Below are positions 1,064-36,005 of a stretch of DNA of 38,983 nucleotides, one piece after another. Within the stretch, counting starts at the first letter, position 1. Each line of letters begins with the position of its first letter. The translations under genes and the position numbers were made by a program. This DNA comes from Myxococcales bacterium (lineage in GTDB: Bacteria; Myxococcota; Myxococcia; Myxococcales; Myxococcaceae), in contig JAUXZV010000023.1 of assembly GCA_030693825.1 (NCBI GenBank), forward strand, positions 1 through 38,983. The letters run 5' to 3'. The notes below the pieces were generated by a model that searched no databases, was not told where the DNA came from, and saw only the letters and a program-made list of their open reading frames with translations.

Positions 1064-1804
1064 TCACGCGTCGCACTCCGATGGCTCGTCGGTGAACGAG
1101 CTCCAATCGGTGAACACGAACTGGCCGTCTGCGCCGAGCGTGCCGTCGAACGCCGCCTTCTTGAGCGACGGCACATCCTTCGGGAACGTGATTCGCACTG
1201 CGCGACCGCTCACCGTCCACTTCCCCGTGAACGACTGCCGCTTCGGGAGCGGCACGCCCTCTGAATCGAACACCAACATCGTCAACGTCACGCTTCCCTG
1301 CGGAGCGAACGACAGCTCCTGCGTCGAGCCGTAGACGCCTTGCCCCGGGCTCCACCACCGCACGCCCGCCACGATCGCCTTCACATCGGACTCCCGCTTC
1401 GGCGACAGGCCCTTCACGCTCTGGAACGCCACCGTGTTGCGCACGTTCGCCAGGTCGGGATCCGTCAGCGCTTTCTCGAGCCGGTTCGGATCTCGCGCGA
1501 TCGACTGCCGCACCTGCTCCCAGATGGCAGATCGATACGCGTCGTGATCACAGACCTTCCCGGCCTTCCGTGCGAGAGCCAGCGTGCACGCGAGGTTGAA
1601 GTGCGCCAGCGCGATGGTCCGGTTGAGCTGCGCCACATCTTTCAACGTGGTCGGCTCGGCTGCCTTCCCACCAAGGTCGATGGCCAGCTTGAACTGGGTG
1701 ATCGCCTCTCCGTACTGCTTCGCCTTGTAGTGCTTCATGCCGGCCGCGTTCGCGTCGAAGGTGGTCGGGTCCGCGGCGAGGAGCATCGAGAGAAGGGCGA
1801 TCAT
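1064..1804 (-). CDS. secreted hypothetical protein with a TPR-like N-terminal region
   Basis: 246-aa ORF. N-terminal signal peptide (MIALLSMLLAADPTTFDANAA). Helical repeat-like segment (KHYKAKQYGEAITQFKLAIDLGG...NLACTLALARKAG) followed by a beta-rich C-terminus. Divergent from thiD with a 36-nt spacer. Confidence 0.6.
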   Translation of the reverse strand: MIALLSMLLAADPTTFDANAAGMKHYKAKQYGEAITQFKLAIDLGGKAAEPTTLKDVAQLNRTIALAHFNLACTLALARKAGKVCDHDAYRSAIWEQVRQSIARDPNRLEKALTDPDLANVRNTVAFQSVKGLSPKRESDVKAIVAGVRWWSPGQGVYGSTQELSFAPQGSVTLTMLVFDSEGVPLPKRQSFTGKWTVSGRAVRITFPKDVPSLKKAAFDGTLGADGQFVFTDWSSFTDEPSECDA

Positions 1805-1840
1805 GTCGACGCTTCTACTCAGTCTGCTAGCTCAACGCGC

Positions 1841-2623
1841 ATGACTCCCACCGCCCTCACCATCGCCGGCTCAGACCCCTCAGGCGGCGCTGGCCTGCAA
1901 GCCGACCTGAAGACGTTTCACCAGCACAGCGTCTACGGCATGGCGGTCGTCTCGCTCCTCACCGTGCAGTCGACCCGAGGCGTCACCCGCGTCGACCCGG
2001 TCTCTGCCGAACTCCTCGCGCAGCAGCTCGATCACCTCCTCGCCGACCTCACGCCCGGCGCCGCGAAGACCGGAGCCCTCGGCAACGCCGCGCTCGTCGA
2101 GGTCGTCGCCGCCCGCGCGAAGGTGTTCTCGTTTCCCCTCGTCGTCGACCCGGTGATGATCAGCAAACACGGCCACCCGCTCATCGACGCGTCAGCCGTG
2201 ACGGCGGTGAAAGAACGACTGCTCCCCGTCTCGTTTCTCCTCACGCCGAACACGCAGGAAGCCGCCGCGCTGACAGGCCGGACCGTCGAGACGCTCGCGC
2301 AATCGAAGGACGCCGCGAAGGCCCTCGCTCAGCTCGGCGCCAGGCACGTGCTCGTGAAAGGTGGCCACCTCGACGGTGCGCCGATCGACGTGTTGTTGAC
2401 GGAAGGGACGCTCCACGAACTCCACGCCGAGCGCATCGACACGAAGCACACCCACGGCACGGGCTGCACCTACTCCGCCGCCATCGTCGCGCGCCTCTCG
2501 CTCGGAGCCCCGCTCCTCACCGCCGTCACCGAAGCCAAGGCCTGGCTCACCCGCGCGATCGCGACTGCTCCCGGAATCGGGTCCGGCGTCGGCCCGGTCA
2601 ACCACTTCGCTCCGTTGCGCTGA
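1841..2623 (+). CDS. thiD: hydroxymethylpyrimidine/phosphomethylpyrimidine kinase
   Basis: 260 aa from an internal ATG of the 1340..2623 ORF (the upstream 167 codons are an R-rich antisense-like extension). Reads LTIAGSDPSGGAGLQADLKT...VDPVMISKHG...LLTPNTQEAAALTG...VKGGH...THGTGCTYSAAIVARLSLG, which is the classic ThiD/PdxK ribokinase-fold signature. Confidence 0.9.
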   Translation: MTPTALTIAGSDPSGGAGLQADLKTFHQHSVYGMAVVSLLTVQSTRGVTRVDPVSAELLAQQLDHLLADLTPGAAKTGALGNAALVEVVAARAKVFSFPLVVDPVMISKHGHPLIDASAVTAVKERLLPVSFLLTPNTQEAAALTGRTVETLAQSKDAAKALAQLGARHVLVKGGHLDGAPIDVLLTEGTLHELHAERIDTKHTHGTGCTYSAAIVARLSLGAPLLTAVTEAKAWLTRAIATAPGIGSGVGPVNHFAPLR

Positions 2624-3210
2624 TCCGCTCGACGAAGCGAGTCTCCGTGAAGCCGAGCGTCGTCAACAGCGCGCGCAGCGCCCGCTCCGATGACTCCCGA
2701 GCCTTCTCCTTCAACCCGCGGTCGCCACGAACGCTCGCCTCGAGCGCCGAGCGGCCCTTCGCCAGCAGGAGAGCAGTCTGCGCGGAGTCCAGGTTCGACG
2801 AGATCACCTCCGTCTCCTGTGGCAGCAGCTCGACCCGCACCTCGGCAGGCGGCAGCACGACCTCGATCGTCCGCCCGACGATTCGAACATCCTCCGGACG
2901 AAGCCGTGACAGGTCGAGCCCCACGTGCGCCACGCCGAAGACGATCGCCCGGCCCCGCTTCGGAGCGACGGTGTGCTTCGCCCACTCGAAGACCTCGGCC
3001 GCGAGCGTCGTCGGAGCCGGCAGCTCCGACTCGTACGAGACCTTCTGGTACACGCTGACCTCGAGCGTCTCGAGGCGCGCGACCGCTCGCATCTGCGTCA
3101 GCACCGCCGGAGTCTCGACCTCCACGACCGGACGCTCGAGCCAGAAGAACGTCCCGACGCCCACGGCCCCGAGGGCGATCAGCAGCGCGGCGCGGAGGAT
3201 GGTGGTCATG
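2598..3210 (-). CDS. DUF4230-family membrane-anchored protein
   Basis: Single N-terminal TM segment (MTTILRAALLIALGAVGVGTFFWL), then a beta-rich domain with a VAHVGLDLSRLRPEDVRIVG segment typical of DUF4230. The start is ambiguous (ATG at 3210, 3222 or 3269). The tail overlaps thiD convergently by 26 nt. Confidence 0.65.
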
Positions 3211-3311
3211 CGCCTCTCCATTCCACTTGCTGTGCCAACCAAGGCGTGTGCCCCCGGCCGCGACGTCAATCTCGAGGTCGAGACTTTGCTTTCCTCCCCT
3301 GAAGGGCTCCA

Positions 3312-4190
3312 ATGGGCCGAATGGGACGAGTCCTGGTGCTGCTGCTGTTGGGGGGAAGTACGACATCAGCCGCCGCCTCCTCCGTACTGGTGGTCGGCGA
3401 GAACGAACGAGGCCGCGAGGTCGCCTCCGAGCTCAGCGAAGTCTTCGCGAAGCAGAAGGTGAAGATGAAGGTCGCAGGCCCTCAGGCTCCCGCGACGAGC
3501 TGTCTGTTTCGTCCCGCCTCCGAACGAGGCCGCTGCTTCTCGCAGGCAGGCCAGACGGCGTTCGTGGACGCGGTGCTCCAGGTCGGAGCCACCACCGCGA
3601 AGGGCCGCACGACCGTGACGTTTCAGCTGCTGAGCCTCGACGATGGCCGGGTGATCAAGCGGGAGGTGGCGACCGGGCCGTCCAACAACCTGAGCAAGGC
3701 GCTGGCGCCGGTGGTCTCGCGGCTGGCAAAGCTGATCAAACCGCAGGGTGGTGGTTCGAAGGCCCCCGAGAAGGTCGAGCCGGAGAAGGCCGCGCCGGAG
3801 CCGGTGGTGACTGCGCCCGAGCCAGTGAAGACGACTCCAGTTCAGCCGGACGTTCCGAAGAAGACCGTGCTCGAGCCCGTGGTGGTCGCGCCGCCGCCGT
3901 CCATCGTGGCGCCCGTGGAGCCGAAGGGAAGCGGACTCACCGTCGCTGCGTGGACGACCACGGGCCTCGCGGTCGCTGCAGCGGGCGTCGCCGGCACCTT
4001 CGGCGGTCTCGGCCTCAGCGCGCGTGGCGAGCTCGACACGAACGAAGGTGGAGTGTCGGCGCTGTCGCGCAGCCAGGCCAACGCCCTTGCAGGACAAGCC
4101 AACACCAACTTCACCGTCGCGCTTGGAGCCGGTATCGGCGCGGGCGTCCTCGGCGTGGTCTCAGCGATTCTCTGGAGCCAGACCCCATGA
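3312..4190 (+). CDS. secreted Pro-rich hypothetical protein; first gene of a three-gene secreted-protein operon
   Basis: Signal peptide MGRMGRVLVLLLLGGSTTSAAA. Central PEP/PVV proline-rich linker. C-terminal Gly/Ala-rich hydrophobic segment (possible membrane anchor). Its stop overlaps the next gene's start (ATGA at 4187-4190). The overlapping 3227-frame reading here is R-rich junk. Confidence 0.7.
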   Translation: MGRMGRVLVLLLLGGSTTSAAASSVLVVGENERGREVASELSEVFAKQKVKMKVAGPQAPATSCLFRPASERGRCFSQAGQTAFVDAVLQVGATTAKGRTTVTFQLLSLDDGRVIKREVATGPSNNLSKALAPVVSRLAKLIKPQGGGSKAPEKVEPEKAAPEPVVTAPEPVKTTPVQPDVPKKTVLEPVVVAPPPSIVAPVEPKGSGLTVAAWTTTGLAVAAAGVAGTFGGLGLSARGELDTNEGGVSALSRSQANALAGQANTNFTVALGAGIGAGVLGVVSAILWSQTP

Positions 4191-6148
4191 CGGCTGCTGC
4201 GCGCGTTCGCTGGCCCATCGTCTTCGCCTTCAGTGTGTTCGGCGCCTGTACCTGCGTCGCTCCACGCGAAGACCTCATCTACGCCTGTGAGCCTGATGGC
4301 TCGTGCCTCGAGGCGGGCCGCGCGTGCGTTCAAGGCCGCTGCGTGCCCATGTCGAACGGTGGAGGACGAGCGGGCGGTGCCGCGGGAGGCGTGGCGGGTG
4401 GAGCGGCAGGCGGCATGGCTGGTGGTCTCGCCGGTGGAATGGCCGGCGGTGACGCGGGCGGCATGGCCGGTGGAATGGCCGGCGGTGACGCGGGCGGCAT
4501 GGCCGGTGGAATGGCCGGTGGTGACGCGGGCGGCATGGCAGGTGGAATGGCCGGCGGCGACGCGGGCGGCATGGCCGGTGGAATGGCAGGTGGAGCGGCG
4601 GCGGGCGGCATGGCCGGAGGAATGGCCGGTGGCGACGCGGGCGGCATGGCGGGAGGAATGGCAGGTGGAGCGGCGGGCGGCATGGCCGGTGGCGACGCGG
4701 GCGGTGTGGCTGGCGGCAGTGCAGGCGGCTCCACGGCAGGTGGAAGCGCAGGCGGCTCGACGGCGGGTGGCAGCGCAGGCGGCTCCGACGCGGGGTGCGT
4801 TCCCTCGGGAGGCACCGACTTCCCCGACGAGAACGGCCTCGACTCGAACTGCGACGGCATCGACGGTGACGCGACGCTGGCCGTCTTCGTCGACGGCACC
4901 AACGGCGTCGACACCAACGCAGGCACTCTGACGCTCCCGTTCCGCACCATCGCGCGCGGCCTCGACGCCGGTCGCCCGCAAGTTCTGGTCTCGAGCGGCA
5001 CGTACGCCGAGTCGCTCGGGCTCGGCACCGGAGGCTTTGGCATCTACGGTGGCTACGACGCGACCTCCTCGTGGGCCCGCACCGCGATGCGGCCCATCGT
5101 CACCCGGCCCATCGTCATCGTCGGTGATGGCGGCACGCTCGCCCTCGACTTCCTCCGCGTGGCGACGACGAACGCGACGTCCTCTCGCAGCGCCGTCTAT
5201 GCGCTCATCGTCGAAGACGCTCCCGCTGGCGTCGTCATCAGCCGCTGCGAGTTCTCCTCAGGCCGCGGTGGCGACGGCTTCAACGGGATGCCCGGGACCG
5301 TCGGCGCCTCTGGAGGGTCTGGCACCCGAGGTGGGAGCGGAGGTGACGGCGGCCTTGGCGGTGCGGGTGGTGCTTCGACGTGCGGGGTCGGCGGACTCCC
5401 AGGCGCGCGCGGCGGAGTCAGTGGCGCTCTCGACGGCGAGACCATCGGCGGGGGAGGCATCGGCGGCGCGGGCCAGACGTGCGACGGAGCGCCCTGCGAG
5501 GCCACCTCGGGTGGACGTGGCCTCGACGGCGTCGATGGCGGTCGTGGACCCGATGGCGCGGAAGGCACGAGCCCTGGGCTGATCGTTGGCCGCCGCTGGG
5601 CTCCCGTCGATGGCCGAAGCGGCGATGGCGGAACACCCGGTCTTGCAGGCCGGCCTGGTGGCGGAGGTGGCGCCGTCTTCGACTCCGACGCAGGCGTGGT
5701 CGCGCGTGGCGGTGGCTCCGGAGGCACGGGCGCAGGTGGATGCCCCGGTGGCGGTGGTGGAGGTGCCCAGTCGGGCGGCGCGTCGATCGCGGCGTTGTTG
5801 ATCAACGCCTCGCCCTCGTTCGACCGCTGTGCCTTCACGACGAGCGGCGGCGGTAACGGTGGCCAGGGAGGCTTCGGCGGCGCAGGCGGCATCGGCGGGT
5901 CCGGTGGCGCGAGTGGCGAAGGGGAACAACTCGGTGGCCTCCTTGCGGGCGACGGCGGCATCAGCGGCCGCGGCGGTCCGGGAGGGGGGGGCGGCAACGG
6001 TGGTCGTGGCGCGGGTGGCCCTTCGATTGGCGTCTGGTGTGAGGGGGCGTCGACTCCAGTCTTCATGGCGCCCTCGTTCACGGTGGGCTCTGGAGGAACC
6101 GGCGTCGTCACCGGCTTGTCGGCGCAGCGCACCGGGACTTGCCCCTGA
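4187..6148 (+). CDS. secreted Cys-module / Gly-rich tandem-repeat / right-handed beta-helix plus GGxGG-rich protein (paralog 1)
   Basis: 654 aa from an in-frame ATG of the 3227..6148 ORF. Signal peptide MTAAARVRWPIVFAFSVFGACTC. Cys module ACEPDGSCLEAGRACVQGRCVP. (GGMAGGMAGGDA)n repeat. Beta-helix N-cap LPFRTIARGLDAGRPQVLVSSGTYAES. A long GGxGGxGG (PGRS-like) Gly-rich C-terminus. Confidence 0.75.
   Translation: MTAAARVRWPIVFAFSVFGACTCVAPREDLIYACEPDGSCLEAGRACVQGRCVPMSNGGGRAGGAAGGVAGGAAGGMAGGLAGGMAGGDAGGMAGGMAGGDAGGMAGGMAGGDAGGMAGGMAGGDAGGMAGGMAGGAAAGGMAGGMAGGDAGGMAGGMAGGAAGGMAGGDAGGVAGGSAGGSTAGGSAGGSTAGGSAGGSDAGCVPSGGTDFPDENGLDSNCDGIDGDATLAVFVDGTNGVDTNAGTLTLPFRTIARGLDAGRPQVLVSSGTYAESLGLGTGGFGIYGGYDATSSWARTAMRPIVTRPIVIVGDGGTLALDFLRVATTNATSSRSAVYALIVEDAPAGVVISRCEFSSGRGGDGFNGMPGTVGASGGSGTRGGSGGDGGLGGAGGASTCGVGGLPGARGGVSGALDGETIGGGGIGGAGQTCDGAPCEATSGGRGLDGVDGGRGPDGAEGTSPGLIVGRRWAPVDGRSGDGGTPGLAGRPGGGGGAVFDSDAGVVARGGGSGGTGAGGCPGGGGGGAQSGGASIAALLINASPSFDRCAFTTSGGGNGGQGGFGGAGGIGGSGGASGEGEQLGGLLAGDGGISGRGGPGGGGGNGGRGAGGPSIGVWCEGASTPVFMAPSFTVGSGGTGVVTGLSAQRTGTCP
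4360..4790. repeat. in-frame 36-nt tandem repeat (about 8 units) encoding (GGMAGGMAGGDA)n, with a degenerate tail
   Basis: The unit ggcggcatggccggtggaatggccggcggtgacgcg recurs with few substitutions across about 4410-4700. The antisense reading gives the spurious PPAMPPAS ORF at 4330..5043. Confidence 0.85.
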
Positions 6149-6238
6149 GGCACTGGGGAGATTCTCTTCCGAACGTTCGTTTTGTGGTGTCGATCTCGGC
6201 GGGCGTCGGCCGGCGCTCACTTCTCGGGGAGCTCTCCA

Positions 6239-8584
6239 GTGCGTCTGATCACTCTTGGCTGCGCAGTCGTGCTCGCGGTGTCTGCTTCGGGGTGTAGCTG
6301 CGGCGTCGTTCCCATTGACGACGACGGAGGCGTGGCCGGCGGGTCTGCGGGCGGCACCTCAGGGACGGGTGGTGGCGCCTCGGCCGGCGGTGCCGCGGGT
6401 GGGAGTGCCGGTGGAGGCGATGCAGGAGGAAGCGCCGCGGGTGGGAGTGCTGCTGGAGGGGATGCAGGAGGAAGCGCCGCAGGTGGCAGCGCCGCGGGTG
6501 GCAGCGCCGCAGGTGGAAGCGCCGCAGGTGGCAGCGCCGGAGGTGCCGCCGTCAATGATGCGTACGTGTGTGGCAACTGCCCGGGCGCGAACAACTCGAA
6601 CCCGGGAACGCGAAACAGCCCGGTCTCGACCATCGGCCGTGGCATCCAGCTGGCCACGATGAACAACGGCGCGCGCGTCTACGTGGCGGCCCGCTTCGGC
6701 GGCGCGACCGTGAACTACTCCGAAGACGTCACGATGGTCGAAGGCCGTTCGCTCGAAGGGCGATGGTCGGTCACCGGGAGCGCCGGCAACTTCACGTGGA
6801 CCCGCAACGGTCCCCGCACGTCGATTCGCAACACTGCGGCCACGGGGTTGAAGTTCCCTGCAGGCCTCACGGCGGCGACCTCGCTCGACGGGTTCTCGAT
6901 CGAGAAGAGCGGCCCTGGCCTCGTCGGCGGCCGCGTCACGGGCATCACCATCACGCAGAGCGCTCCCGTCGTCCGTGACTTCGACGTGGCGCCTCCCCAG
7001 ATCGCCATCGGCACCGCTGCCGATGCCATCGGCATCGACGTGCTTGGCACCATGACCGCTCCCGCTGCGCCGTCGCTTCAAGGCGGAGGCCCCGCGAACA
7101 GCACGGTGAACGCGGGCTCTGGCTCGACGTCGAGCGTCGGTCTCGCGGGCCTCTTCGCGCGTGTCACGGTGGCGGGCGTCGACTTCAGGGCAGAGAACGG
7201 CGGCACCACCTCGGCGGGCGTCTTCATCATCAGCAGCCCGGGCTCGACCTTCACTCGAGGCACGTACACGGCAGGCGCCGCCAACAGCTGCTTCGGCTTC
7301 GCGTCGTCGGGCGAAGCGAGCGGAACGCGCGTCGAGGGCGTGACGGCCGTCGGCTGCCCGCGCGTGGCCAACGTGATGAACGTGCCTCGCTTCGGTGTCG
7401 GCGTGTTGTTCGACAACTGCCCCGCGCTCTCTCCGGGGAGCGGCAACCCCATCGTTCGCAACGTCACCGCGACGGGCGGCGTCGTCGGAGGCAACAACAG
7501 CTCGGCCGTCGGAGGCGCCGCGCTCGACGGGTGTGCCGTGCGCTTCGAGGGCACGGCAGGGAGCTCCGCGACGTTCACCGGCGCCTCCCAGGCTCCAGCG
7601 TTCGGCATGGGGCCCGAGAACACCGTCGGCATCGCCTGCTCGTTCGCCGGCTTCCGCAACCCCAACGGCTTCGACGCGCGCTGCTCCATCTCAGGCGTCT
7701 CGGCCTTCGGTGGCTTCGTCTCGGCGCCCAACTCCATTGGCCTCGCGTGCGATGGAACGTGCGGCAATCAGCCCGCCTCGTGTCGCGGCTCGTGCGACGA
7801 GCTCGCGAACAACACCTTCTCGGCCGCCTCGGGCACCCAGATGAACCACGTGCTCCTGCGCAACTCGTCGCCGAGCCTTCGGGCCAACCGGCTTGGGGTC
7901 GGCGGCAACGGCATCACCTGCGGCAACAACGCGACCGTCGTCGGCATGACGCTCCAGGGCTCTGCAGCGTCCGTCATCAACAACCTCATCGTCGGCGGCC
8001 CGTGCCTCACCAGCATCGGCGTCTCGAATCAGCTCGCCCAGCGCTCGGATGGCTCGACGCCGTCGGCGAACTTCCACTCGAACACCATCGTCTCGAGGAC
8101 CTCTGGCGGTGGTTCGCCGTCGCTCAACAGCATCGGCGCGCAGCTGGTGGGGCCGGCAGGCTCGGCGACAGCCCTCGTCGGGAGCACGTGGCGGAACAAC
8201 ATCTTCTTCGCTGGCCCGGCGCAGGGCTCGGGCTCGGTGGCGGTGGCGTTCCGCGAGACGAGCACCGGCGCAGACCCGGCCACGCTCGGCAACAACCTGT
8301 TCTTCACCGACTCGCCCAGCCTCAACCCGCCGCTGTACTTCGATGAAGGCACGACGGCGCTCACCACCACGGCGGCCATCAATGGGCTGATGGGGTCCTC
8401 CGGCAACGTCGCCGGCGACCCGGACTTCGTGAACGCGGGCAACGGCAACTACGCGCCGGCCAGCCCGTCACCGGCGCGCGCAGCAGGCACGACGACAGGC
8501 GCGCCGGCGGTCGACTTGAACGGCGCCAGCCGCCCCAACCCGGTGGGCAGCAACCCCGACATCGGCTGCATCGAAGTCAACTGA
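6239..8584 (+). CDS. lipoprotein-type secreted right-handed parallel beta-helix (pectin-lyase-fold) protein with a Gly-rich repeat linker (paralog 2)
   Basis: GTG at 6239 is preceded by GGGGAG 8 nt upstream. Lipoprotein-like signal VRLITLGCAVVLAVSASGC. A (GGSAA)n linker. Beta-helix cap VSTIGRGIQLATMNNGARVYVAARFGGATVNYSEDVTMVEGRSLEG, followed by many N/G/T/S-rich beta-helix turns over about 700 aa. Alternative start at 6182. Confidence 0.75.
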   Translation: MRLITLGCAVVLAVSASGCSCGVVPIDDDGGVAGGSAGGTSGTGGGASAGGAAGGSAGGGDAGGSAAGGSAAGGDAGGSAAGGSAAGGSAAGGSAAGGSAGGAAVNDAYVCGNCPGANNSNPGTRNSPVSTIGRGIQLATMNNGARVYVAARFGGATVNYSEDVTMVEGRSLEGRWSVTGSAGNFTWTRNGPRTSIRNTAATGLKFPAGLTAATSLDGFSIEKSGPGLVGGRVTGITITQSAPVVRDFDVAPPQIAIGTAADAIGIDVLGTMTAPAAPSLQGGGPANSTVNAGSGSTSSVGLAGLFARVTVAGVDFRAENGGTTSAGVFIISSPGSTFTRGTYTAGAANSCFGFASSGEASGTRVEGVTAVGCPRVANVMNVPRFGVGVLFDNCPALSPGSGNPIVRNVTATGGVVGGNNSSAVGGAALDGCAVRFEGTAGSSATFTGASQAPAFGMGPENTVGIACSFAGFRNPNGFDARCSISGVSAFGGFVSAPNSIGLACDGTCGNQPASCRGSCDELANNTFSAASGTQMNHVLLRNSSPSLRANRLGVGGNGITCGNNATVVGMTLQGSAASVINNLIVGGPCLTSIGVSNQLAQRSDGSTPSANFHSNTIVSRTSGGGSPSLNSIGAQLVGPAGSATALVGSTWRNNIFFAGPAQGSGSVAVAFRETSTGADPATLGNNLFFTDSPSLNPPLYFDEGTTALTTTAAINGLMGSSGNVAGDPDFVNAGNGNYAPASPSPARAAGTTTGAPAVDLNGASRPNPVGSNPDIGCIEVN
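6405..6545. repeat. in-frame 15-nt tandem repeat encoding (GGSAA)n
   Basis: ggtggcagcgccgca-type units repeated about 9 times. The antisense reading gives the spurious PPAALPPAAL ORF at 6217..6666. Confidence 0.8.
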
Positions 8585-8699: not shown

Positions 8700-10028
8700 A
8701 TGGATACCGCCACGCTCGCGCGAGCACAGATGGGGCTCTCGCTGGCGTTTCACATCATCTTCGCGGCGTTCGGAGTCGGGCTGCCATTGCTCCTGGTCAT
8801 CGCCGAGACGATGGCGACGCGGACGAACGAGCCGCGCTACCGGTTGCTCGCCCAGCGCATGGCGAAGGGCACTGCGATTCTCTTCGCGGTCGGCGCGGTC
8901 TCGGGCACGGTGCTCTCACTCGAGCTCGGCCTCTTGTGGCCAGAGTTCATGCGGCGCTTCGGTGAGGTGGTCGGCCCGCTCTTCGCGCTCGAGGGCGTGG
9001 CCTTCTTCCTCGAGGCCATCTTCCTCGGCATCGTCTTGTATGGCCGCGAGCTCGTCTCGCCGCGCGTGTTCCGCTTCTCTGGCGTGATGGTGGCGGTCTC
9101 GGGCGCCGCGTCGGCGGGCTTCGTCACGGTGGTGAACGCCTTCATGAACCTGCCGGTGCCGGTGCAGTGGGATGCGGGCCGCGCGTACCTCGAGCAGCCA
9201 TGGCTCGTCTTCACCGCGCCCTCAGCAGCGACGCAGGTGGTCCACGTGCTGCTCTCGTCGTACGCGGTGACGGGCTTCGTGATGGCGGCAGTGCACGCAG
9301 TGTTGCTGCTGCGCGGAAGGGAGCCGTCATTTCATCGCCTCGCGCTCAACGTCGCGTTGCCGGTCGGCGCCGTCGCGGCGCTGCTGTTGCCGCTCTCGGG
9401 TGACGTCGCGGCGAAGCAAGTGACGAAGCACCAGCCGTGGAAGCTCGCCGCGATGGAGGCCCACTTCACGACGATGGCGTGCGCGCCGCTCCTCATCGGT
9501 GGGCTGCCCGACGAAGCGACAGGAACGGTCCGGTTCGGCCTCGAGATTCCGTGTGGCCTGTCGGTGCTCGGCGCTGTGGACCCGAACGCCGTCATCACCG
9601 GCCTCGACCAGGTGCCAGTGGCGGAGCGGCCTCCCGTCACCCGCACGCACCTCAGCTTCCAGGTGATGGTGGGCGCTGGCGGCTTCCTCGCGCTGCTCTC
9701 GCTCTTCGCCCTCGGTTGGCGCTGGAGGAAGAAGGAATGGCCACCGCAGCGCGCGTTCCTCTTCGCGCTCGTCGTGGCGGGTGTGGCGGCGCCGGTGGCG
9801 ATGGAGGCCGGCTGGCTGGTGACGGAGTGGGGCCGGCAACCATACGTGGTGCGTGGGCTGCTGCTGACCGCCGATGCGTCGACCCGGGTCGAAGGGCTCG
9901 CGGGCCGCCTCGCCGTCTTCGCAGCGCTGTACGTCTTCCTTGCGGTGACGGTGGTGGCGCTCCTTCGTGGGCTGTTCCGCGAGCCCGAGCCGACCGTCGA
10001 GCCGTCGCTGGTGCCGCATGGGGCTTGA
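8700..10028 (+). CDS. cydA: cytochrome bd-type quinol oxidase subunit I (short Q-loop, CioA-like)
   Basis: 442 aa, multi-TM. Conserved N-terminal region MGLSLAFHIIFAAFGVGLPLLLVIAE...WAKGTAILFAVGAVSGTVLSLELG and ...GWLVTEWGRQPYVV near the C-terminus. GGAGG RBS 6 nt upstream of the ATG. Confidence 0.9.
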   Translation: MDTATLARAQMGLSLAFHIIFAAFGVGLPLLLVIAETMATRTNEPRYRLLAQRMAKGTAILFAVGAVSGTVLSLELGLLWPEFMRRFGEVVGPLFALEGVAFFLEAIFLGIVLYGRELVSPRVFRFSGVMVAVSGAASAGFVTVVNAFMNLPVPVQWDAGRAYLEQPWLVFTAPSAATQVVHVLLSSYAVTGFVMAAVHAVLLLRGREPSFHRLALNVALPVGAVAALLLPLSGDVAAKQVTKHQPWKLAAMEAHFTTMACAPLLIGGLPDEATGTVRFGLEIPCGLSVLGAVDPNAVITGLDQVPVAERPPVTRTHLSFQVMVGAGGFLALLSLFALGWRWRKKEWPPQRAFLFALVVAGVAAPVAMEAGWLVTEWGRQPYVVRGLLLTADASTRVEGLAGRLAVFAALYVFLAVTVVALLRGLFREPEPTVEPSLVPHGA

Positions 10029-10980
10029 GCATGTCATCGCCGCGGTGATGGTGGGCGGACTGGTGCTCTACGTGCTCGGCGGCGGCGCGGACTTCGGTGG
10101 CGGCGTGTGGGACCTGCTGGCCTCTGGGCCACGCAAAGACGACCAGCGCGCGCTCATCGAGCGCACCATCGGGCCCATCTGGGAGGCGAACCACGTCTGG
10201 TTCATCTTCGTCTTCGTGCTGTTCTTCAGCGCCTTCCCGCCCGCGTTCGCGACGCTGACGACCGCGCTCTTCACGCCGCTGACGCTGTACGCGATGGGCC
10301 TGGTGATGCGGGGCTCGGCCTTCACGTTCCGCCACTACGACAGCGACCCGGTGCGCCGCCGCCGCTTCGGAGCGCTGTTCTCTGCCGCCAGCATCGGGTG
10401 CCCCTTCATCCTCGGGGCGATCGGCGCGGCGATGGTGCGCGAGCGGCCGCTGTCACTCGAGCTCGACCTCTTCGTCGTCGCGGGAGGCTTCTTCATGTTG
10501 GCCCTCGTCGCGGCGCTGGCGGCGACGTACCTGGCGGTTGCGGCGACCGACGAAGCGGTGCGTGAGGACTTCCGGCGTCGCGCCATCGTCAGCCTCGTGG
10601 TGGCCGGCGCCGCTTCGTGGCTCGCGCTCGCCGTCGCGGGAGACGTCGCGCCCCTGCTCATCACGCGGGTCGGCTTCGGCCTGCCAGCCCTCGCCGGAAC
10701 GCTGTTGGGCTTCCTCGCCGTGGCGATGCAGGCGACGCGTCGCTACCGCGCGGCGCGCTTCGCGGTCGGAGCGCTCGCCAGCACCGTCGTCATCGGGTGG
10801 GCGGTCGCGAAGGGCGAGGTGCTGGTGTGGGGTGAGCACACGCTGGCGTCGAGCCGCGCGCACCCGGCGACGCTGCAGGTGTTGCTCATCGCGAGCGCCG
10901 TGGCAGCGGTGCTGGTGATGCCGAGCCTCGCGCTGCTGTTCTCGGTCTTCAGTCAGCGTGCGGCGAAAGGCCTGAGCTGA
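10018..10980 (+). CDS. cydB: cytochrome bd-type quinol oxidase subunit II
   Basis: An internal ATG (MGLEHVIAAVMVGGLVLYVLGGGADFGGGVWDL...) overlaps the cydA stop by 11 nt. 320 aa. Polytopic membrane protein with a typical CydB N-terminus (YxxLxGxDxGxG). Confidence 0.85.
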   Translation: MGLEHVIAAVMVGGLVLYVLGGGADFGGGVWDLLASGPRKDDQRALIERTIGPIWEANHVWFIFVFVLFFSAFPPAFATLTTALFTPLTLYAMGLVMRGSAFTFRHYDSDPVRRRRFGALFSAASIGCPFILGAIGAAMVRERPLSLELDLFVVAGGFFMLALVAALAATYLAVAATDEAVREDFRRRAIVSLVVAGAASWLALAVAGDVAPLLITRVGFGLPALAGTLLGFLAVAMQATRRYRAARFAVGALASTVVIGWAVAKGEVLVWGEHTLASSRAHPATLQVLLIASAVAAVLVMPSLALLFSVFSQRAAKGLS

Positions 10981-17489: not shown

Positions 17490-18830
17490 TCACCGGGTGA
17501 CGGTCGCTTCCACGCGAACGGTGAGATCGGCGAACGACGGCTGGCTGTCATCGAAGTCGGCTTCGAGCAACACGACCTGCGGACCCACAGTCCGCGGAGT
17601 GAACGACAGAGTCCACTCGGCCATCGCGCCGGGCGCGGGAATCGGTCTCGACTCGAGCCCGAGCCCGGCAGGCAACGGCCGCACGCGCAGCTTCGTGCAC
17701 GCTCCGGTTCCGGTGTTGCGCACCTGAAGCCGGGCGATGCGCGTCTCGCCCACGACTGCCGAGCCAACGTTGACGTCAGAGGCCTCGAGCCTGCAATCGG
17801 TCGCGGCGAGCCCCTCGATGGCGAAGGGGATGCGGTCGGTCCACTCGCCCGTCGAGCCACGAACGGTGAGCCGCGGCCAGACGGAGCGGGCTCCGACGGC
17901 CTTCGGGCTCATGACGACCGTGAGGCCGGTGGGCGCCGAGGGCTCCAGCTGCGCGGGCAACGACGACGTCAGCGTGAGGATGCCGGCCTCGTCGCGGAAG
18001 CCGATGAGCGTCGCGGGCTCCGCGATGGCTTGAATGCTCCGCGAGATCTCCACCGGCGACCCGATGCGCACCCGCACCGGAGCCCGGGTGGGGTCGAGGT
18101 CGCGAACCGTACGGCCCGTCGCGGAGGCAGCCGGCCAGCTCAGGGCTCGACTTCCCACCGTCACGTTGGCCCGCGTGTCGAGCTCGAGCAGCGCCGGCGT
18201 CTCTGCCGTCACCGGCATGAGCTTCAAGAAGGGCAGGAGGCCGCCGAGCCCGCCCTTCTCGTCGTCGCCGTGAGAGACGACGCTGATTCGTTTCACCGTC
18301 GTCTCCCCACTGCGAACGCTGAAGCGCGCACGCTTGATCAGCACCGCGTCGGTTCGGTCGATTGGCAGCTCGAGGTCACCGAACGGGTTCAGCGCCTTGC
18401 AGCGGTCCAGCGGGAGCCCATCATCTTCAGCGCTCGTGTTCGCCGCGCACACCGTGAGGCCGAGGTCGACGATGGAGCGTGAGACGACCCAGCGCCCGGC
18501 TTCGACGCCGTCGACCAACACGACGACCGTGGTCTCTTCGCTGCCCAGCTTCGTGCGGGGCCAGGACAGGTCGACCCGGTCTTCTCCTGTCGTGGTGCGC
18601 AGACACGGGTCGGCGGCGCCATCGCGAGTGCAGGTCACCGTGCTCCTCGACGAGACCAGACTCAGCTGCGCCCTGAGGCCGTCTTCCATGTCCCAGGCCG
18701 AGACTTCGCCGAGCTTCACTGGAGCGCCACTCGCGACGCCGTTGAGCGTGACGACGGGGTCGGGGGCGGGCGGCGCACAGGCGGCGAGCAACAGCAGTCC
18801 GAGCAGCCAGCGCGGGTGAAGACGGAACAT
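17490..18830 (-). CDS. lipoprotein with C-terminal choice-of-anchor-D/Ig-like domain; third gene of the rSAM operon
   Basis: Lipobox LLLLAAC. C-terminus CRLEASDVNVGSAVVGETRIARLQVRNTGTGAC matches the choice-of-anchor-D pattern (FG.V.VG......L.N.G). AGGAG RBS overlaps the rSAM stop. 18-nt gap to the upstream gene. Confidence 0.7.
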   Translation of the reverse strand: MFRLHPRWLLGLLLLAACAPPAPDPVVTLNGVASGAPVKLGEVSAWDMEDGLRAQLSLVSSRSTVTCTRDGAADPCLRTTTGEDRVDLSWPRTKLGSEETTVVVLVDGVEAGRWVVSRSIVDLGLTVCAANTSAEDDGLPLDRCKALNPFGDLELPIDRTDAVLIKRARFSVRSGETTVKRISVVSHGDDEKGGLGGLLPFLKLMPVTAETPALLELDTRANVTVGSRALSWPAASATGRTVRDLDPTRAPVRVRIGSPVEISRSIQAIAEPATLIGFRDEAGILTLTSSLPAQLEPSAPTGLTVVMSPKAVGARSVWPRLTVRGSTGEWTDRIPFAIEGLAATDCRLEASDVNVGSAVVGETRIARLQVRNTGTGACTKLRVRPLPAGLGLESRPIPAPGAMAEWTLSFTPRTVGPQVVLLEADFDDSQPSFADLTVRVEATVTR

Positions 18831-18848
18831 GGTGACTCCTGGAACAGG

Positions 18849-20075: not shown

Positions 20076-20085
20076 GGGCGGTGCC

Positions 20086-20451
20086 TCAGGGCCCGCCGTC
20101 AGCGCCGCCGTCTCGTGAGCCGCCGTCCGAAGCGCCGGCGTCGGAGGGGGCGCCGCTGTCGTCGGTGAAGACCGTCGTGCCACCGTCGGGCTGGTTCACG
20201 AGGTCACCCGGGCAGCGGAAGGTGCTGGTCACGCCTCCGTCGGGGAGCGTCTCACTGACGGACCGGCAGCCCGTCGCAGGCGCCCCGTAGCAGGCCATCA
20301 GCGTCATCGAGGCCCCGAGTCCTCCGAGCAGGCCCATCGCCAGCCTGCCGAGCGACGACCTCGGCGTGAGCGGTCCCTCGCAGTGGGGACATTCGGAGAG
20401 TGAAACGGGGACGACGCCTGAACACGCTGGGCACTTCGACAGAGACGACAT
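20086..20451 (-). CDS. small zinc-ribbon / single-TM / Gly-Asp-rich-tail protein; candidate partner or substrate of the adjacent radical SAM enzyme
   Basis: 121 aa from an ATG with GGAGGGAG 9 nt upstream (the track ORF extends further 5' as R/P-rich junk). N-terminal CPACSG...CPHCEG zinc ribbon. TM helix LAMGLLGGLGASMTLMACYGAPA. Then CRSVSETLPDGGVTSTFRCPGDLVNQPDGG and a D/G/S-rich tail. 10-nt gap to the rSAM gene. Confidence 0.6.
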   Translation of the reverse strand: MSSLSKCPACSGVVPVSLSECPHCEGPLTPRSSLGRLAMGLLGGLGASMTLMACYGAPATGCRSVSETLPDGGVTSTFRCPGDLVNQPDGGTTVFTDDSGAPSDAGASDGGSRDGGADGGP

Positions 20452-25421: not shown

Positions 25422-26954
<1,533 letters not shown>

Positions 26955-26986: not shown

Positions 26987-28768
26987 GTGAGCCGCGCTTC
27001 ACTCTTGTATGCGGCTGGCTCCGGCTGCGCGCGGAGCGGCTATGGTGATTCCGTGCGTTGGACCACGATCAGTTTGCTGCCAATGGTGCTCGCGGGGTGC
27101 AGCCTTCCCACGGGTGTGAGCTTCAGGTGTGAGTCAGACGGCGCGTGCCCGGACGGCCTTCGGTGCGTCGCGCTCGACGCGGGCCGATACTGCCTCGACG
27201 TCGATGGCGGTGCGGCGGGTGCTGGGACCGCGGGTGGAGGAGTCGCAGGCGGCGGAACGTCAGGCGGCGGAACGTCAGGCGGCGGAACGTCAGGCGGCGG
27301 AACGTCAGGTGGCGGAACGTCAGGCGGCGGAACGTCAGGCGGCGGAACGTCAGGCGGCGGAACGTCAGGCGGCGGAACGTCAGGCGGCGGAACGTCAGGT
27401 GGCGGAACGTCAGGCGGCGGAACGTCAGGTGGCGGAACGTCAGGTGGCGGAACGTCAGGTGGCGGAACGTCAGGTGGCGGAATCGCAGGTGGCGGAACGT
27501 CCGGCTGCGGAGCACCCCTCGATCTCGCCGATACCCTCTACGTCAGCGTCGACGGCGGGAGCGATTCGAACAGCGGCGTCTCGCCAACCGCTCCCTTCGC
27601 GACCGTCACCCACGCGCTCACCCGCGCAGTCTCTCTTGGTCGCTCGGTGATCGCGGTAGCGCCTGGCGTCTACTCGGAGCCAGTCGTCATCGGCTCGGCG
27701 CACGCCGGCCGCACGGTGACAGGCGGGTTCCTCGCCGATTGGACCCGGGACTGTGCCGCAGACGCTCGAGACCGGACCGTCATCGACGCGCCCGCTGGGG
27801 TCGGCATCGCGTTCTCCAGCATCTCGGGCCCCGAGGTCATCGTGCGCCGAATGACGGTCCGCTCTGGTCCGACGGCTCAGAAGGGCGGCTCGACGTACGG
27901 TGTTCGCGCGCTCGCTTCGAACGTCTCCCTGCACGACGTGGTGGTGATCGCCGAACCGGCGAGCGAGGGGCGCATGCCGGCGTCACCTGTCGACATGACG
28001 GGGACCACGCTGTGCCTCGGCGTCAGTGACTGTTCCACGGGCGGCGCGGGGTCTCGAGGCGCAGCGGGCAGGTCTGCAGATGGCGGTTGGTTCGACGCGA
28101 TGGGCTTCTTGCCGGGCGTCGGAGAGACTGGAACCCCGGGTGGGCCTGGCTTCAACGGAACCCCGCCGCCGCTGCCTGTTCCCGCGAACTGCGCGACGTG
28201 CAGCGGCTCGACGCCTTGCAACGGCAGTAACCTGTTCTGCGGGAACACGACCGGAGCCATGAGCGGCACTCGTGGCCGATGCGGCTGCGGCGGCCTCGGT
28301 GGTCTCGGCGCAGCTGGTGGAATCGGCGGCGGCGCGTCCATCGCCCTGTTTGCCTCGGGTAGCAGTCTCGTTCGCGTCACGAACTCCGTGCTGCGTTCGA
28401 GAGCAGGCGGCGCGGGCGTTGGCGGCGCCTTCGGTGGCCTCGGAAGCCTCGGCTCGTCTGGTGCTCGTGGCAACCCGACCGCCTGCATCGACCCAAACGG
28501 CGCCAACTGTTCTCGCATGCGGTGCAACGACAACTGCGAGCCGAGCGGCCAGGTGCTGGCGGTTGCTGGAGGCGCTGACGGTGGGACTGGCGGCACGGGT
28601 GGAGCCGGTGGGCCCGGTGGGGCCGGCGCGGGCGGCCCTTCCATCGGCGTCGTCTCGGTCTTCAGCACGGTGACGCTCACCGCGTCGACGGTCAACACGG
28701 GCTTCCCTGGCCCTGCAGCGGACGGCGGTCAGCCTGGCTTCTCGCAGCAGACCCTGACGATTCCGTAG
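26987..28768 (+). CDS. lipoprotein-type secreted Cys-module / (TSGGG)n tandem-repeat / beta-helix plus GGxGG-rich protein (paralog 3)
   Basis: GTG start (alternative GTG at 27053 gives a cleaner lipo-signal MRWTTISLLPMVLAGCS). Cys module RCESDGACPDGLRCVALDAGRYCLDV. 16x TSGGG. Beta-helix cap PFATVTHALTRAVSLGRSVIAVAPGVYSEPVVIG. Cys-rich NCATCSGSTPCNGSNLFCG. GGLGGLGAAGGIGGGASIALF and GGxGG tracts as in paralog 1. Confidence 0.75.
   Translation: MSRASLLYAAGSGCARSGYGDSVRWTTISLLPMVLAGCSLPTGVSFRCESDGACPDGLRCVALDAGRYCLDVDGGAAGAGTAGGGVAGGGTSGGGTSGGGTSGGGTSGGGTSGGGTSGGGTSGGGTSGGGTSGGGTSGGGTSGGGTSGGGTSGGGTSGGGTSGGGIAGGGTSGCGAPLDLADTLYVSVDGGSDSNSGVSPTAPFATVTHALTRAVSLGRSVIAVAPGVYSEPVVIGSAHAGRTVTGGFLADWTRDCAADARDRTVIDAPAGVGIAFSSISGPEVIVRRMTVRSGPTAQKGGSTYGVRALASNVSLHDVVVIAEPASEGRMPASPVDMTGTTLCLGVSDCSTGGAGSRGAAGRSADGGWFDAMGFLPGVGETGTPGGPGFNGTPPPLPVPANCATCSGSTPCNGSNLFCGNTTGAMSGTRGRCGCGGLGGLGAAGGIGGGASIALFASGSSLVRVTNSVLRSRAGGAGVGGAFGGLGSLGSSGARGNPTACIDPNGANCSRMRCNDNCEPSGQVLAVAGGADGGTGGTGGAGGPGGAGAGGPSIGVVSVFSTVTLTASTVNTGFPGPAADGGQPGFSQQTLTIP
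27240..27490. repeat. near-perfect in-frame 15-nt tandem repeat (about 16 units) encoding (TSGGG)n
   Basis: caggcggcggaacgt repeated head-to-tail. The only variation is g/t at one position (caggTggcggaacgt). Antisense frames give the spurious LTFRHLTFRR and AAERQ ORFs. Confidence 0.9.
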
Positions 28769-32139: not shown

Positions 32140-32214
32140 GGTGCTGCCTGTGAAGTCGAGGAGCGCAGACGGAAGACGGTAGCGCAGGGCCCCCTTTCGA
32201 GGTGAGTTCCCGCT

Positions 32215-33090: not shown

Positions 33091-33096
33091 CCGCCG

Positions 33097-33771: not shown

Positions 33772-33774
33772 GGG

Positions 33775-35838: not shown

Positions 35839-35922
35839 CGCGCGGAGTGTGCTTCAGAATTGGCGTGCAGTGTCGCGCGCCGGTGACGGTCCTCCGGACG
35901 GTCAAAGCTCCGATGTTGACTC

Positions 35923-35938
35923 CAGAATCAATATTCTG
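35923..35938. promoter_or_regulatory. AT-rich perfect palindrome CAGAATcaatATTCTG next to a TTGACT hexamer, about 70 nt upstream of the MFE-2 gene (candidate operator and promoter)
   Basis: 6-bp inverted arms with a 4-bp spacer in an otherwise about 70% GC region. TTGACT at 35916-35921. Sits in the divergent intergenic region between the SGNH gene (-) and the MFE-2 gene (+). Confidence 0.35.
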
Positions 35939-36005
35939 CTCTGAAGCCCCCAGTGCCGCACGGCTTCGGGTCATTCGTTCACCGGCCCCTCGAGAGGACG
36001 CACGC

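What the first reader, a model, noticed from the sequence alone, without database searches (positions are those of the whole stretch)
3312..8584. Three-gene operon of secreted proteins: two adjacent paralogous Cys-module/Gly-repeat/beta-helix proteins preceded by a Pro-rich secreted protein
Genes at 3312-4190, 4187-6148 and 6239-8584 are co-directional. The first two are coupled by an ATGA overlap.

Both large proteins combine:
- a signal or lipoprotein peptide,
- a short Cys module,
- a low-complexity Gly-rich linker encoded by a DNA tandem repeat,
- a pectin-lyase-fold N-cap motif (P-F/S-x-T-I-x-x-G/A-L ... Y-x-E).

Paralog 1 additionally has a long GGxGGxGG (PGRS-like) domain. Large secreted beta-helix proteins in myxobacteria are candidates for adhesins, polysaccharide lyases/hydrolases or surface-layer components. 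The operon arrangement with a Pro-rich partner suggests an assembled extracellular structure.
Basis: partly seen in the sequence, partly recalled or inferred. Interest (0 to 1): 0.6.

Follow-up and report, generated by a model that had tools for sequence, protein, structure and literature searches.

The report
Tethered beta-helix lipoproteins with stalk partner
This is a real, conserved gene cluster from an uncultured myxobacterium that encodes a membrane-anchored proline-rich protein and two lipid-anchored beta-helix proteins on long floppy glycine-rich tethers; it is an uncharacterised but fairly ordinary kind of cell-envelope module, and the two large proteins are only distant relatives.

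Summary
Three co-directional genes lie at 3312-4190 (A), 4187-6148 (B) and 6239-8584 (C). A and B overlap by ATGA. B and C have lipoboxes and in-frame tandem DNA repeats that encode Gly-rich linkers.

AlphaFold2 models with fold searches give right-handed parallel beta-helices for both B and C. The linkers are predicted disordered.

The interpretation needs three corrections.
- B and C are not close paralogs. BLASTP finds nothing, and profile comparison shows homology only over about 140 residues (N-cap plus first rungs). B's true paralog lies 21 kb away at 27053-28768.
- A is not a free secreted protein. It ends in a conserved hydrophobic hairpin and looks like a membrane-anchored Pro-rich stalk.
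- The conserved core is the A-B pair, found in 8 of 8 testable loci down to 32% identity. C is an add-on in one subclade.

B's C-terminal half has family-conserved glycines with period 3, interleaved with canonical beta-helix rungs. It is PGRS-like, and no Pfam or NCBIfam model covers it.

No catalytic family membership could be shown. My best reading is outer-membrane lipoproteins, adhesin- or glycan-binding, on length-variable tethers, with A as partner. The cluster is a new member of a known kind, of moderate to low interest.

The parts
3210..3311 (+). Divergent intergenic region between the DUF4230 gene (2598-3209, minus strand) and gene A. This is the presumed promoter region.
   Evidence: Sequence and ORF layout. 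No sigma-70-like site was found, so the promoter is inferred only.
3312..4190 (+). Gene A, 292 aa. Signal peptide aa 1-23; Cys-pair domain aa 24-145 (invariant C64 and C75); Pro-rich spacer aa 146-206; conserved hydrophobic hairpin aa 207-292.
   Evidence: Translation. 46 homologues, all from Myxococcales MAGs or metagenomes. Alignment. 24.6% Pro in aa 146-206 and Kyte-Doolittle maximum 2.19 at aa 269-287. The NCBI homologue P0157 starts at the second ATG (3321).
3747..3929 (+). Pro-rich (EP/KP/VxP) spacer of A, variable in length among orthologues.
   Evidence: TRF finds a 15-bp repeat at 3768-3800.
3930..4187 (+). C-terminal Gly/Ala-rich hydrophobic helix-loop-helix of A, the most conserved part. 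It is shared with PEGA-, TolB_N- and TPR-bearing proteins of similar size.
4187..6148 (+). Gene B, 653 aa, a lipoprotein. Its start overlaps the stop of A (ATGA).
   Evidence: Homologues. AlphaFold2 model pLDDT 97-98 for aa 205-653.
4187..4249 (+). B signal peptide and lipobox (VFGA-C21), followed by T-C (a CxC mature N-terminus).
4253..4342 (+). B Cys module (C23; C34-x5-C40-x6-C47-x4-C52), predicted as a small beta-hairpin domain.
   Evidence: pLDDT 88-91 with strands at aa 45-48 and 51-54. Conserved in orthologues and in 24 of 122 family members.
4343..4795 (+). B disordered linker, (M/D/A)AGG then S(T)AGG repeats, encoded by tandem DNA repeats at 4381-4794.
   Evidence: TRF. pLDDT below 50 for aa 59-199. 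Gly period 4. Unit and length vary among orthologues, 74-189 aa.
4817..4870 (+). DFPDENGLDSNCDGIDGD, an acidic Cys-containing motif resembling a metal/Ca-binding site, just before the N-cap.
   Evidence: NCDGxDG is present in 94 of 122 family members. Nearly invariant columns D211-G227. Pfam MopE (PF11617) does not hit B itself.
4871..5260 (+). B right-handed beta-helix: N-cap helix and first rungs (DUF1565-like). This is the part homologous to C aa 103-253.
5261..6145 (+). B Gly-triplet (PGRS-like) domain, interleaved with canonical rungs at about aa 531-553 and 612-634. It ends in a conserved C-P.
   Evidence: Period-3 conservation of Gly, lag-3 autocorrelation 0.60. pLDDT about 98 but mostly unassigned by DSSP. 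No Pfam or NCBIfam model.
6239..8584 (+). Gene C, 781 aa, a lipoprotein (GTG start, SD-like GGGGAG at 6226-6231).
   Evidence: About 32 homologues, all from Myxococcales MAGs. AlphaFold2 pLDDT above 90 for aa 105-781.
6239..6295 (+). C signal peptide and lipobox (SASG-C19), followed by the conserved S-C-x-V-V-P-x-D-D-D.
6296..6556 (+). C disordered Gly/Ala/Ser linker encoded by tandem repeats at 6392-6545.
   Evidence: TRF. pLDDT below 50 for aa 1-104. Length 34-233 aa in homologues, with NVAGG units in L003 and L009.
6557..8446 (+). C right-handed parallel beta-helix, Cys-rich (12 invariant Cys between aa 351 and 589).
   Evidence: Foldseek hits 7dmk, 2pyg, 6f7k and 7eea at E 1e-5 to 1e-4. 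Invariant columns.
8447..8578 (+). C-terminal cap of C, a choice-of-anchor Q domain.
   Evidence: NCBIfam NF041518, 28.5 bits against a cut-off of 25, E 1.3e-6.
27053..28768 (+). B2, the true in-window paralog of B: lipobox LAGC, Cys module, (TSGGG)n linker (DNA repeat 27246-27511, 15 bp x 17.7), N-cap and Gly-rich domain. It has no A-like neighbour.
   Evidence: B-family HMM E 1.6e-25 with two significant domains. The start codon is inferred.

Best explanation
This is a conserved cell-envelope module of an uncultured Myxococcales lineage.

Gene A encodes an exported protein with four parts: a small disulfide-containing N-terminal domain, a Pro-rich semi-rigid spacer, and a conserved C-terminal hydrophobic hairpin that anchors it in a membrane. 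It is translationally coupled to gene B.

B is a lipoprotein. In order it has a lipid-modified Cys, a small Cys-hairpin module, a disordered tandem-repeat tether of about 150 residues, an acidic NCDGxDG motif, and a right-handed beta-helix. The distal two-thirds of that helix is built from Gly triplets (PGRS-like) interleaved with ordinary rungs.

C is added downstream in one subclade. It is a second lipoprotein with a tether of about 90 residues and a Cys-rich right-handed beta-helix of about 630 residues, capped by a choice-of-anchor-Q domain.

Inferred mechanism:
- After Sec export and lipidation, B and C go to the outer membrane. Neither has a +2 Lys or a +7 Ala.
- They hold their beta-helices away from the membrane on flexible spacers. 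Spacer length changes by in-frame repeat slippage.
- The beta-helices act as binding modules for glycan, a surface or Ca2+ (adhesin-like). They are not demonstrated enzymes.
- A is a stoichiometric partner that positions or retains B.

Shown here: gene structure, conservation and synteny, lipoboxes, disorder, folds, Gly periodicity. Inferred: localisation, ligand, A-B contact.
For: - Gene structure and coupling.
- Synteny. The order A-B-C is found in L003, L007, L009 and L012. An A-family gene is immediately followed by a B-family gene in 8 of 8 loci with enough downstream DNA, including A relatives at 32-36% identity. C is absent in L010 and L015.
- The linkers are disordered and hypervariable in unit and length but always present.
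- Lipoboxes are conserved in both families.
- M. xanthus sorting rules (+2 Lys for the inner membrane, +7 Ala for the matrix) are not met, which implies a default outer-membrane location (PMC3222651).
- Disordered N-terminal linkers are typical of outer-membrane lipoproteins (bioRxiv 10.1101/2021.01.05.425367).
- Many conserved Cys residues fit an oxidising extracytoplasmic location.
- The choice-of-anchor Q cap marks surface-protein passengers.
- The only characterised protein with detectable similarity to B is the Ca-binding surface adhesin LIC10774 of Leptospira, and only at the N-cap.
- A's hairpin and Pro-rich spacer are shared with PEGA- and TolB_N-type envelope proteins.
Against: - There is no experimental localisation and no ligand.
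- The sorting rules come from M. xanthus, not from this organism.
- Beta-helix hits in the PDB are dominated by polysaccharide lyases, hydrolases and epimerases, so an enzymatic role for C is not excluded.
- The A-B interaction is inferred only from translational coupling and co-conservation.
- B2 and most B-family members have no A partner.
- The membrane that holds A's hairpin is unknown.
- AlphaFold2 can over-confidently build solenoids from repetitive Gly-rich sequence (my own knowledge). I could not inspect coordinates.
- Co-transcription of C is not shown: the gap is 90 nt, and a weak hairpin at 6143-6158 is no better than chance.
Confidence: 0.55

Rival explanations
1. C, and possibly B, is a tethered polysaccharide-active enzyme (lyase, hydrolase or epimerase). 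It would act on exopolysaccharide, capsule or prey cell-wall glycans at the surface or in the periplasm.
For: The best structural neighbours of C are PL6 alginate lyases, AlgE4/AlgE6 epimerases and phage tailspike depolymerases. The neighbours of B include Pel9A, pectin methylesterases and rhamnogalacturonan lyase. C has a set of invariant polar residues in its C-terminal third: R602, N615, R652-N654, E673, D679, Y700 and E703.
Against: TM-scores are only 0.2-0.33, identity is about 10% and E is about 1e-5. Neither protein hits a Pfam beta-helix, pectate-lyase or GH28 model at E <= 1. PDB profile searches find no enzyme relative. Most invariant positions are Cys, Gly or Asn, which are structural. 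No catalytic constellation could be mapped.
Confidence: 0.25
2. The module is a periplasmic trans-envelope bridge. A, anchored in the inner membrane, reaches across on its Pro-rich stalk to outer-membrane-tethered B and C. This would resemble TonB or LpoA/B logic and serve peptidoglycan or envelope maintenance.
Against: YkuD is convergent. It is separated from the cluster by cydAB here and is missing next to C in L012, so the adjacency looks like ordinary synteny. The choice-of-anchor Q cap and the Leptospira relative point to the surface. There is no direct evidence of location.
Confidence: 0.15
3. One reading: B and C are recently duplicated paralogs that, together with a secreted Pro-rich partner, assemble into an extracellular or S-layer-like structure.
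For: B and C share an architecture of lipobox, linker and beta-helix, and a homologous N-cap. The gene order is conserved.
Against: BLASTP gives E = 12. Homology is limited to 137 columns at 19% identity. The distal domains are entirely different. C is absent from the more distant A-B loci. A has a membrane anchor. Lipid anchors argue against free assembly.
Confidence: 0.05

Closest known systems
Right-handed parallel beta-helix (pectin-lyase-like) superfamily, e.g. Pel9A (1ru4), PL6 alginate lyase BcAlyPL6 (7dmk), AlgE4 A-module (2pyg)
   Same: Predicted fold of B aa 229-358 plus later rungs, and of C aa 107-736. An N-cap helix follows a P-x-x-T-I motif.
   Different: About 10-19% identity. 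No Pfam beta-helix or lyase model is matched. No catalytic residues were identified. B replaces most rungs with Gly triplets. C is unusually Cys-rich.
Leptospira LIC10774/LIC10365 surface proteins and Pfam DUF1565
   Same: N-cap region similarity: NF047854 hits 36 of 60 B-family members and DUF1565 hits 9 of 60. LIC10774 is a Ca-binding surface adhesin.
   Different: The match covers only about 47 residues, at 26.6 bits against a cut-off of 380. The rest of the protein is unrelated.
Mycobacterial PE_PGRS proteins (PGRS domain, PGII-sandwich model; PMC9436101)
   Same: Long runs of GGx/Gxx triplets with conserved period-3 glycines. The domain is confidently modelled but has no regular DSSP structure.
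   Different: There is no PE domain and no type VII secretion context. Export is via a lipoprotein signal. The triplet runs are interleaved with beta-helix rungs and Cys residues. PGII geometry was not verified.
Autotransporter passenger adhesins (UpaB 6bea, Vag8 7akv, pertactin 2iou)
   Different: There is no beta-barrel translocator. Anchoring is by an N-terminal lipid plus a tether.
Outer-membrane lipoproteins with disordered N-terminal linkers (RcsF, NlpD, Pal, LpoB)
   Same: A lipid anchor followed by an intrinsically disordered spacer before the folded domain.
   Different: The spacers here are tandem-repeat encoded. They are much longer (about 77-190 aa, up to 233) and turn over their repeat unit between lineages.
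Choice-of-anchor Q domain proteins (NCBIfam NF041518)
   Same: C's last 44 residues pass the model cut-off. NCBI names close homologues this way.
   Different: No C-terminal sorting signal follows the domain. The anchor is N-terminal lipid.
Pro-rich envelope stalk proteins (TonB-like; myxobacterial PEGA- and TolB_N-domain proteins with the same C-terminal hairpin)
   Same: A's Pro-rich spacer and C-terminal hairpin are homologous to those of PEGA-, TolB_N- and TPR-bearing proteins.
   Different: A's N-terminal Cys-pair domain matches no Pfam family. Its orientation is the reverse of TonB's, with the anchor at the C-terminus.

Membership tests
Right-handed parallel beta-helix / pectin-lyase-like fold | Three-stranded right-handed coils with an N-terminal capping helix, seen as structural similarity to solved members | tested here: met
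Right-handed parallel beta-helix / pectin-lyase-like fold | Sequence match to Pfam Beta_helix, Pectate_lyase_3 or related models | tested here: not met
   No Pfam family for B or C at E <= 1.
Polysaccharide lyase / GH28-type enzymes | Identifiable catalytic residues (Ca-binding Asp plus Arg/Lys base, or the Asp triad) in the groove | not testable with these tools
Only the list of invariant polar residues is available.
DUF1565 (PF07602) | Score above the Pfam gathering threshold | tested here: not met
   B itself has no hit. 9 of 60 relatives do, best E 2.4e-8. B is therefore related to the family but is not a scoring member.
LIC10774/LIC10365 surface protein (NF047854) | Full-length equivalog score of at least 380 bits | tested here: not met
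   26.6 bits over aa 232-278 only.
Choice-of-anchor Q domain (NF041518) | Domain score of at least 25 bits | tested here: met
   C aa 737-780, 28.5 bits, E 1.3e-6.
Bacterial lipoprotein | Signal peptide ending in a lipobox [LVI][ASTVI][GAS]C, conserved in homologues | tested here: met
   B: VFGA-C. C: SASG-C. B2: VLAG-C. Full-length homologues keep the lipobox. Lipidation itself was not tested.
PE_PGRS | N-terminal PE domain with the linker motif (GRPLI) | tested here: not met
   B starts with a lipoprotein signal and a Cys module. There is no PE domain hit in Pfam.
PE_PGRS | Gly-rich triplet repeats forming PGII helices | tested here: inconclusive
   Period-3 conserved Gly with lag-3 autocorrelation 0.60, and confident non-DSSP structure. 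Backbone geometry could not be inspected. No PGII structure appears among the significant fold hits.
RTX beta-roll | Tandem GGxGxDxUx nonapeptides | tested here: not met
   Only two isolated matches in B (aa 361 and 442), and none in B2 or C.
MopE-like metal-binding motif (PF11617) | Pfam match | tested here: not met
   No hit in B. Some distant family members carry PF11617. The NCDGxDG motif is only reminiscent of it.
Collagen-like triple helix | Uninterrupted G-X-Y with Pro-rich X/Y | tested here: not met
   PDB profile hits to collagens and to 8zxl have per-domain E of about 1 and high bias. The runs are short, interrupted and Pro-poor.

The most novel reading that the evidence does not exclude
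The B family has more than 1000 members in several phyla and no Pfam or NCBIfam model for its distal half. It could be an unrecognised class of lipoproteins in which a right-handed beta-helix is continued by a true polyglycine-II (PGRS-type) domain. That would mean PGRS-like folds are not confined to mycobacteria. In the myxobacterial subfamily, this protein would also work as an obligate pair with a dedicated membrane-anchored Pro-rich stalk protein (A), forming a length-tunable trans-envelope or surface tether.
Probability: 0.25. Interest if true: 0.55.

Novelty: new member of a known kind. Interest (0 to 1): 0.3.

Why it matters
If the reading is right, the locus adds an uncharacterised but well-conserved envelope module to the myxobacterial surface repertoire. 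It also gives a clean example of lipoprotein tethers whose length evolves by in-frame repeat slippage.

The wider point concerns B's Gly-triplet domain. It is widespread and confidently modelled, yet absent from domain databases. A solved structure would show whether PGII/PGRS-type packing exists in Gram-negative lipoproteins.

There is a practical consequence too. The repeat DNA breaks short-read assemblies, so these genes are systematically truncated in MAGs.

Tried and rejected
- Plasmid megablast of the locus found no match.
- Pfam found nothing for A, B or C. NCBIfam gave only partial or terminal hits.
- PDB sequence profiles. The C family gave nothing meaningful. The B family hit 8zxl 'spindle/axial fibril' and collagens. 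I rejected these as G-x-x low-complexity matches, because per-domain E was 0.77-1.3 and bias was high. A paper search on those names was irrelevant.
- I rejected an RTX beta-roll.
- The promoter and terminator scan did no better than shuffled sequence.
- The first search for related loci attempt, with the full C alignment, failed because no stretch was conserved enough.
- The metagenome scan with A returned only 4 loci.
- Literature searches for DUF1565, for Gly-rich beta-helix and for PGRS in Myxococcus found no study of these families.
Only one multi-domain relative (P0257) carries such a domain, next to its A-like domain.
- I rejected the idea that the Gly-rich half of B is a chance ORF in high-GC DNA. 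Homologues are conserved to the terminal C-P.


Full report
**Observation**

The window is about 69% GC. On the + strand there are ORFs at 3312-4190 (A, 292 aa), 4187-6148 (B, 653 aa from the ATG at 4187) and 6239-8584 (C, 781 aa from the GTG at 6239). The stop of A and the start of B overlap as ATGA at 4187-4190. B and C are separated by 90 nt, with GGGGAG 8 nt upstream of the GTG.

Tandem Repeats Finder reports in-frame arrays at three places:
- 4381-4692, period 12/36/72, score up to 401;
- 4708-4794, period 27;
- 6392-6545, period 15/42.

GC3 is 0.81 for A and 0.85 for C but only 0.75 for B. The Gly-rich half of B gives no frame signal, so I relied on homologues to confirm the frame. They are conserved through to the terminal Cys-Pro.

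The upstream gene, a DUF4230 protein at 2598-3209, is divergent. The cluster therefore starts at A.

**Are the genes real and conserved?**

- A has 46 homologues (E <= 1e-3), all from uncultured Myxococcales MAGs or metagenomes. One is 100% identical.
- C has about 32 true homologues from the same sources. NCBI names some of them 'choice-of-anchor Q domain-containing protein'.
- B, queried without its linker, has more than 1000 hits. A few are labelled DUF1565, 'PE-PGRS family' or 'metal-binding motif-containing'.

In genome and metagenome loci the order A-B-C recurs in L003, L007, L009 and L012. I ran HMM searches of six-frame ORFs in all 16 loci. An A-family gene is followed immediately by a B-family gene in 8 of 8 loci that have enough downstream DNA. 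This includes A relatives at only 32-36% identity (L010, L015, L016). C follows B only in the closer clade and is absent in L010 and L015. The conserved core is therefore the translationally coupled A-B pair, and C is a subclade addition.

Several MAG contigs begin inside the repeat DNA of B or C (L001, L002). This explains why many database homologues are N-terminally truncated.

**Are B and C paralogs?**

BLASTP of B against C finds nothing (E = 12). Profile-profile comparison of the two family alignments gives 98.7% probability and E 2.7e-16. The match covers only 137 columns at 19% identity, pairing C aa 103-253 with B aa 211-359, which is the N-cap and first rungs. Beyond that the proteins are unrelated in sequence.

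The genuine paralog of B in this window is at 27053-28768 (B2). It has a lipobox LAGC, a similar Cys module, a (TSGGG)n linker encoded by a 15-bp x 17.7 repeat at 27246-27511, an N-cap and a Gly-rich domain. The B-family HMM matches it at E 1.6e-25. B2 has no A-like neighbour.

**Anatomy and structure**

*Protein C.* The AlphaFold2 model (29-sequence alignment) has pLDDT above 90 for aa 105-781 and is all-beta. Residues 1-104 are disordered. Every significant Foldseek hit in the PDB is a right-handed parallel beta-helix: PL6 alginate lyase 7dmk (E 1.2e-5), AlgE4 (2pyg) and several tailspikes. TM-scores are only 0.2-0.33 and identity is about 10%. The last 44 residues pass the NCBIfam choice-of-anchor Q cut-off. 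The family has 12 invariant Cys between aa 351 and 589.

Most of aa 359-653 has no DSSP assignment despite the high confidence. The family-conserved glycines there have a clear period of 3 (autocorrelation 0.60, 0.31 and 0.20 at lags 3, 6 and 9). The linker, by contrast, has period 4. Canonical rungs (GGASIAALLINASPSFDRCAFTT and GGPSIGVWCEGASTPVFMAPSFTV) interrupt the triplet runs.

This pattern matches the triplet logic proposed for mycobacterial PGRS 'PGII sandwiches' (PMC9436101). I could not inspect coordinates, so PGII geometry is unverified. An RTX beta-roll is excluded. The collagen-like PDB profile hits are low-complexity artefacts. No Pfam or NCBIfam model covers this half of B.

*Protein A.* It has these parts, in order:
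- a signal peptide;
- a domain of about 120 residues with two invariant Cys;
- a Pro-rich spacer (24.6% Pro, variable in length);
- a highly conserved C-terminal Gly/Ala-rich helix-loop-helix, with a Kyte-Doolittle maximum of 2.19.

An exhaustive profile search finds 285 representatives. Most share only the spacer and the hairpin. Some of those carry PEGA, TolB_N or TPR domains instead of A's N-domain. A is therefore best read as a membrane-anchored stalk protein, not a free secreted one.

**Linkers**

Both lipoprotein families keep a lipobox followed by C-x-C (B: C-T-C; C: C-S-C-x-V-V-P-x-D-D-D) and then a low-complexity spacer. The repeat unit and the length both change between lineages:
- B: (M/D)AGG, SSGG, xDAG or PPDAG, 74-189 aa;
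- C: SAAGG or NVAGG, 34-233 aa.

What is conserved is the property (a disordered, in-frame repeat), not the sequence.

**Mechanism (inferred)**

Under the M. xanthus lipoprotein rules, +2 Lys marks the inner membrane and +7 Ala marks the matrix (PMC3222651). B has +2 Thr and +7 Arg, and C has +2 Ser and +7 Pro, so both default to the outer membrane. Disordered N-terminal linkers are typical of outer-membrane lipoproteins.

Three further observations point the same way:
- both proteins have many conserved Cys;
- C carries the choice-of-anchor Q cap;
- the only characterised protein with detectable similarity to B is the Ca-binding surface adhesin LIC10774, although the similarity is limited to the N-cap.

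On this basis I favour tethered binding or adhesin-type beta-helices, with A as a co-expressed partner (confidence 0.55).

An enzymatic role cannot be excluded, especially for C, because its structural neighbours are mostly glycan-active enzymes. No family membership or catalytic site supports it, however (confidence 0.25). A periplasmic bridge model is possible (0.15). Its one contextual clue, the neighbouring YkuD gene, looks like plain synteny.

**Verdict**

This is a real and well-conserved module made of known kinds of parts. B and C are database-dark in family terms. The most notable element is B's widespread, unmodelled Gly-triplet domain, together with the strict A-B pairing. Interest is moderate to low (0.3). 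I rate it a new member of a known kind.

Noticed in passing
window 27053-28768 (+); repeat 27246-27511: A second B-family lipoprotein (B2). Its (TSGGG)n linker is encoded by a very homogeneous 15-bp x 17.7 repeat (95% matches). It stands alone next to an F1/V-type or FliI-like ATPase gene (25422-26921, minus strand).
   Followed up: partly
window 4381-4794, 6392-6545, 27246-27511; L001 and L002 contig ends: The Gly-linker repeats use GGT/GGA codons, with GC3 about 0.69 in a genome whose genes have GC3 of 0.85-0.95. Short-read MAG contigs terminate exactly in them, so database homologues of B and C are often truncated or miscalled.
   Followed up: partly
window 8700-10980 (+): The cytochrome bd oxidase genes cydAB lie between C and the YkuD gene only in this window and its closest relatives (L002, L003). 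They are absent at that position in L001 and L004-L009.
   Followed up: partly
window 17490-20183 (-): A radical SAM/SPASM protein (18849-20183) lies next to a 445-aa protein with no Pfam match (17490-18830). The radical SAM gene is also present in L001.
   Followed up: no
window 30439-37922 (-): A run of minus-strand genes suggests polysaccharide modification: an 839-aa carbamoyltransferase (NodU/CmcH type), a 686-aa AlgX-like SGNH protein, and 223-aa and 646-aa proteins with no Pfam match.
   Followed up: no
B and C mature N-termini (window 4247-4255; 6293-6301) and their homologues: In both lipoprotein families the lipidated Cys is followed by a second Cys at +3 (C-T-C and C-S-C). In the C family this continues as a conserved V-V-P-x-D-D-D. 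It may be a sorting or disulfide signal, but its meaning is unknown.
   Followed up: partly
window 1064-2623: The mechanical ORF at 1340-2623 (+) is a composite. Only about 1838-2623 is real (thiD, phosphomethylpyrimidine kinase). Its 5' part is the shadow of the minus-strand gene at 1064-1804.
   Followed up: yes
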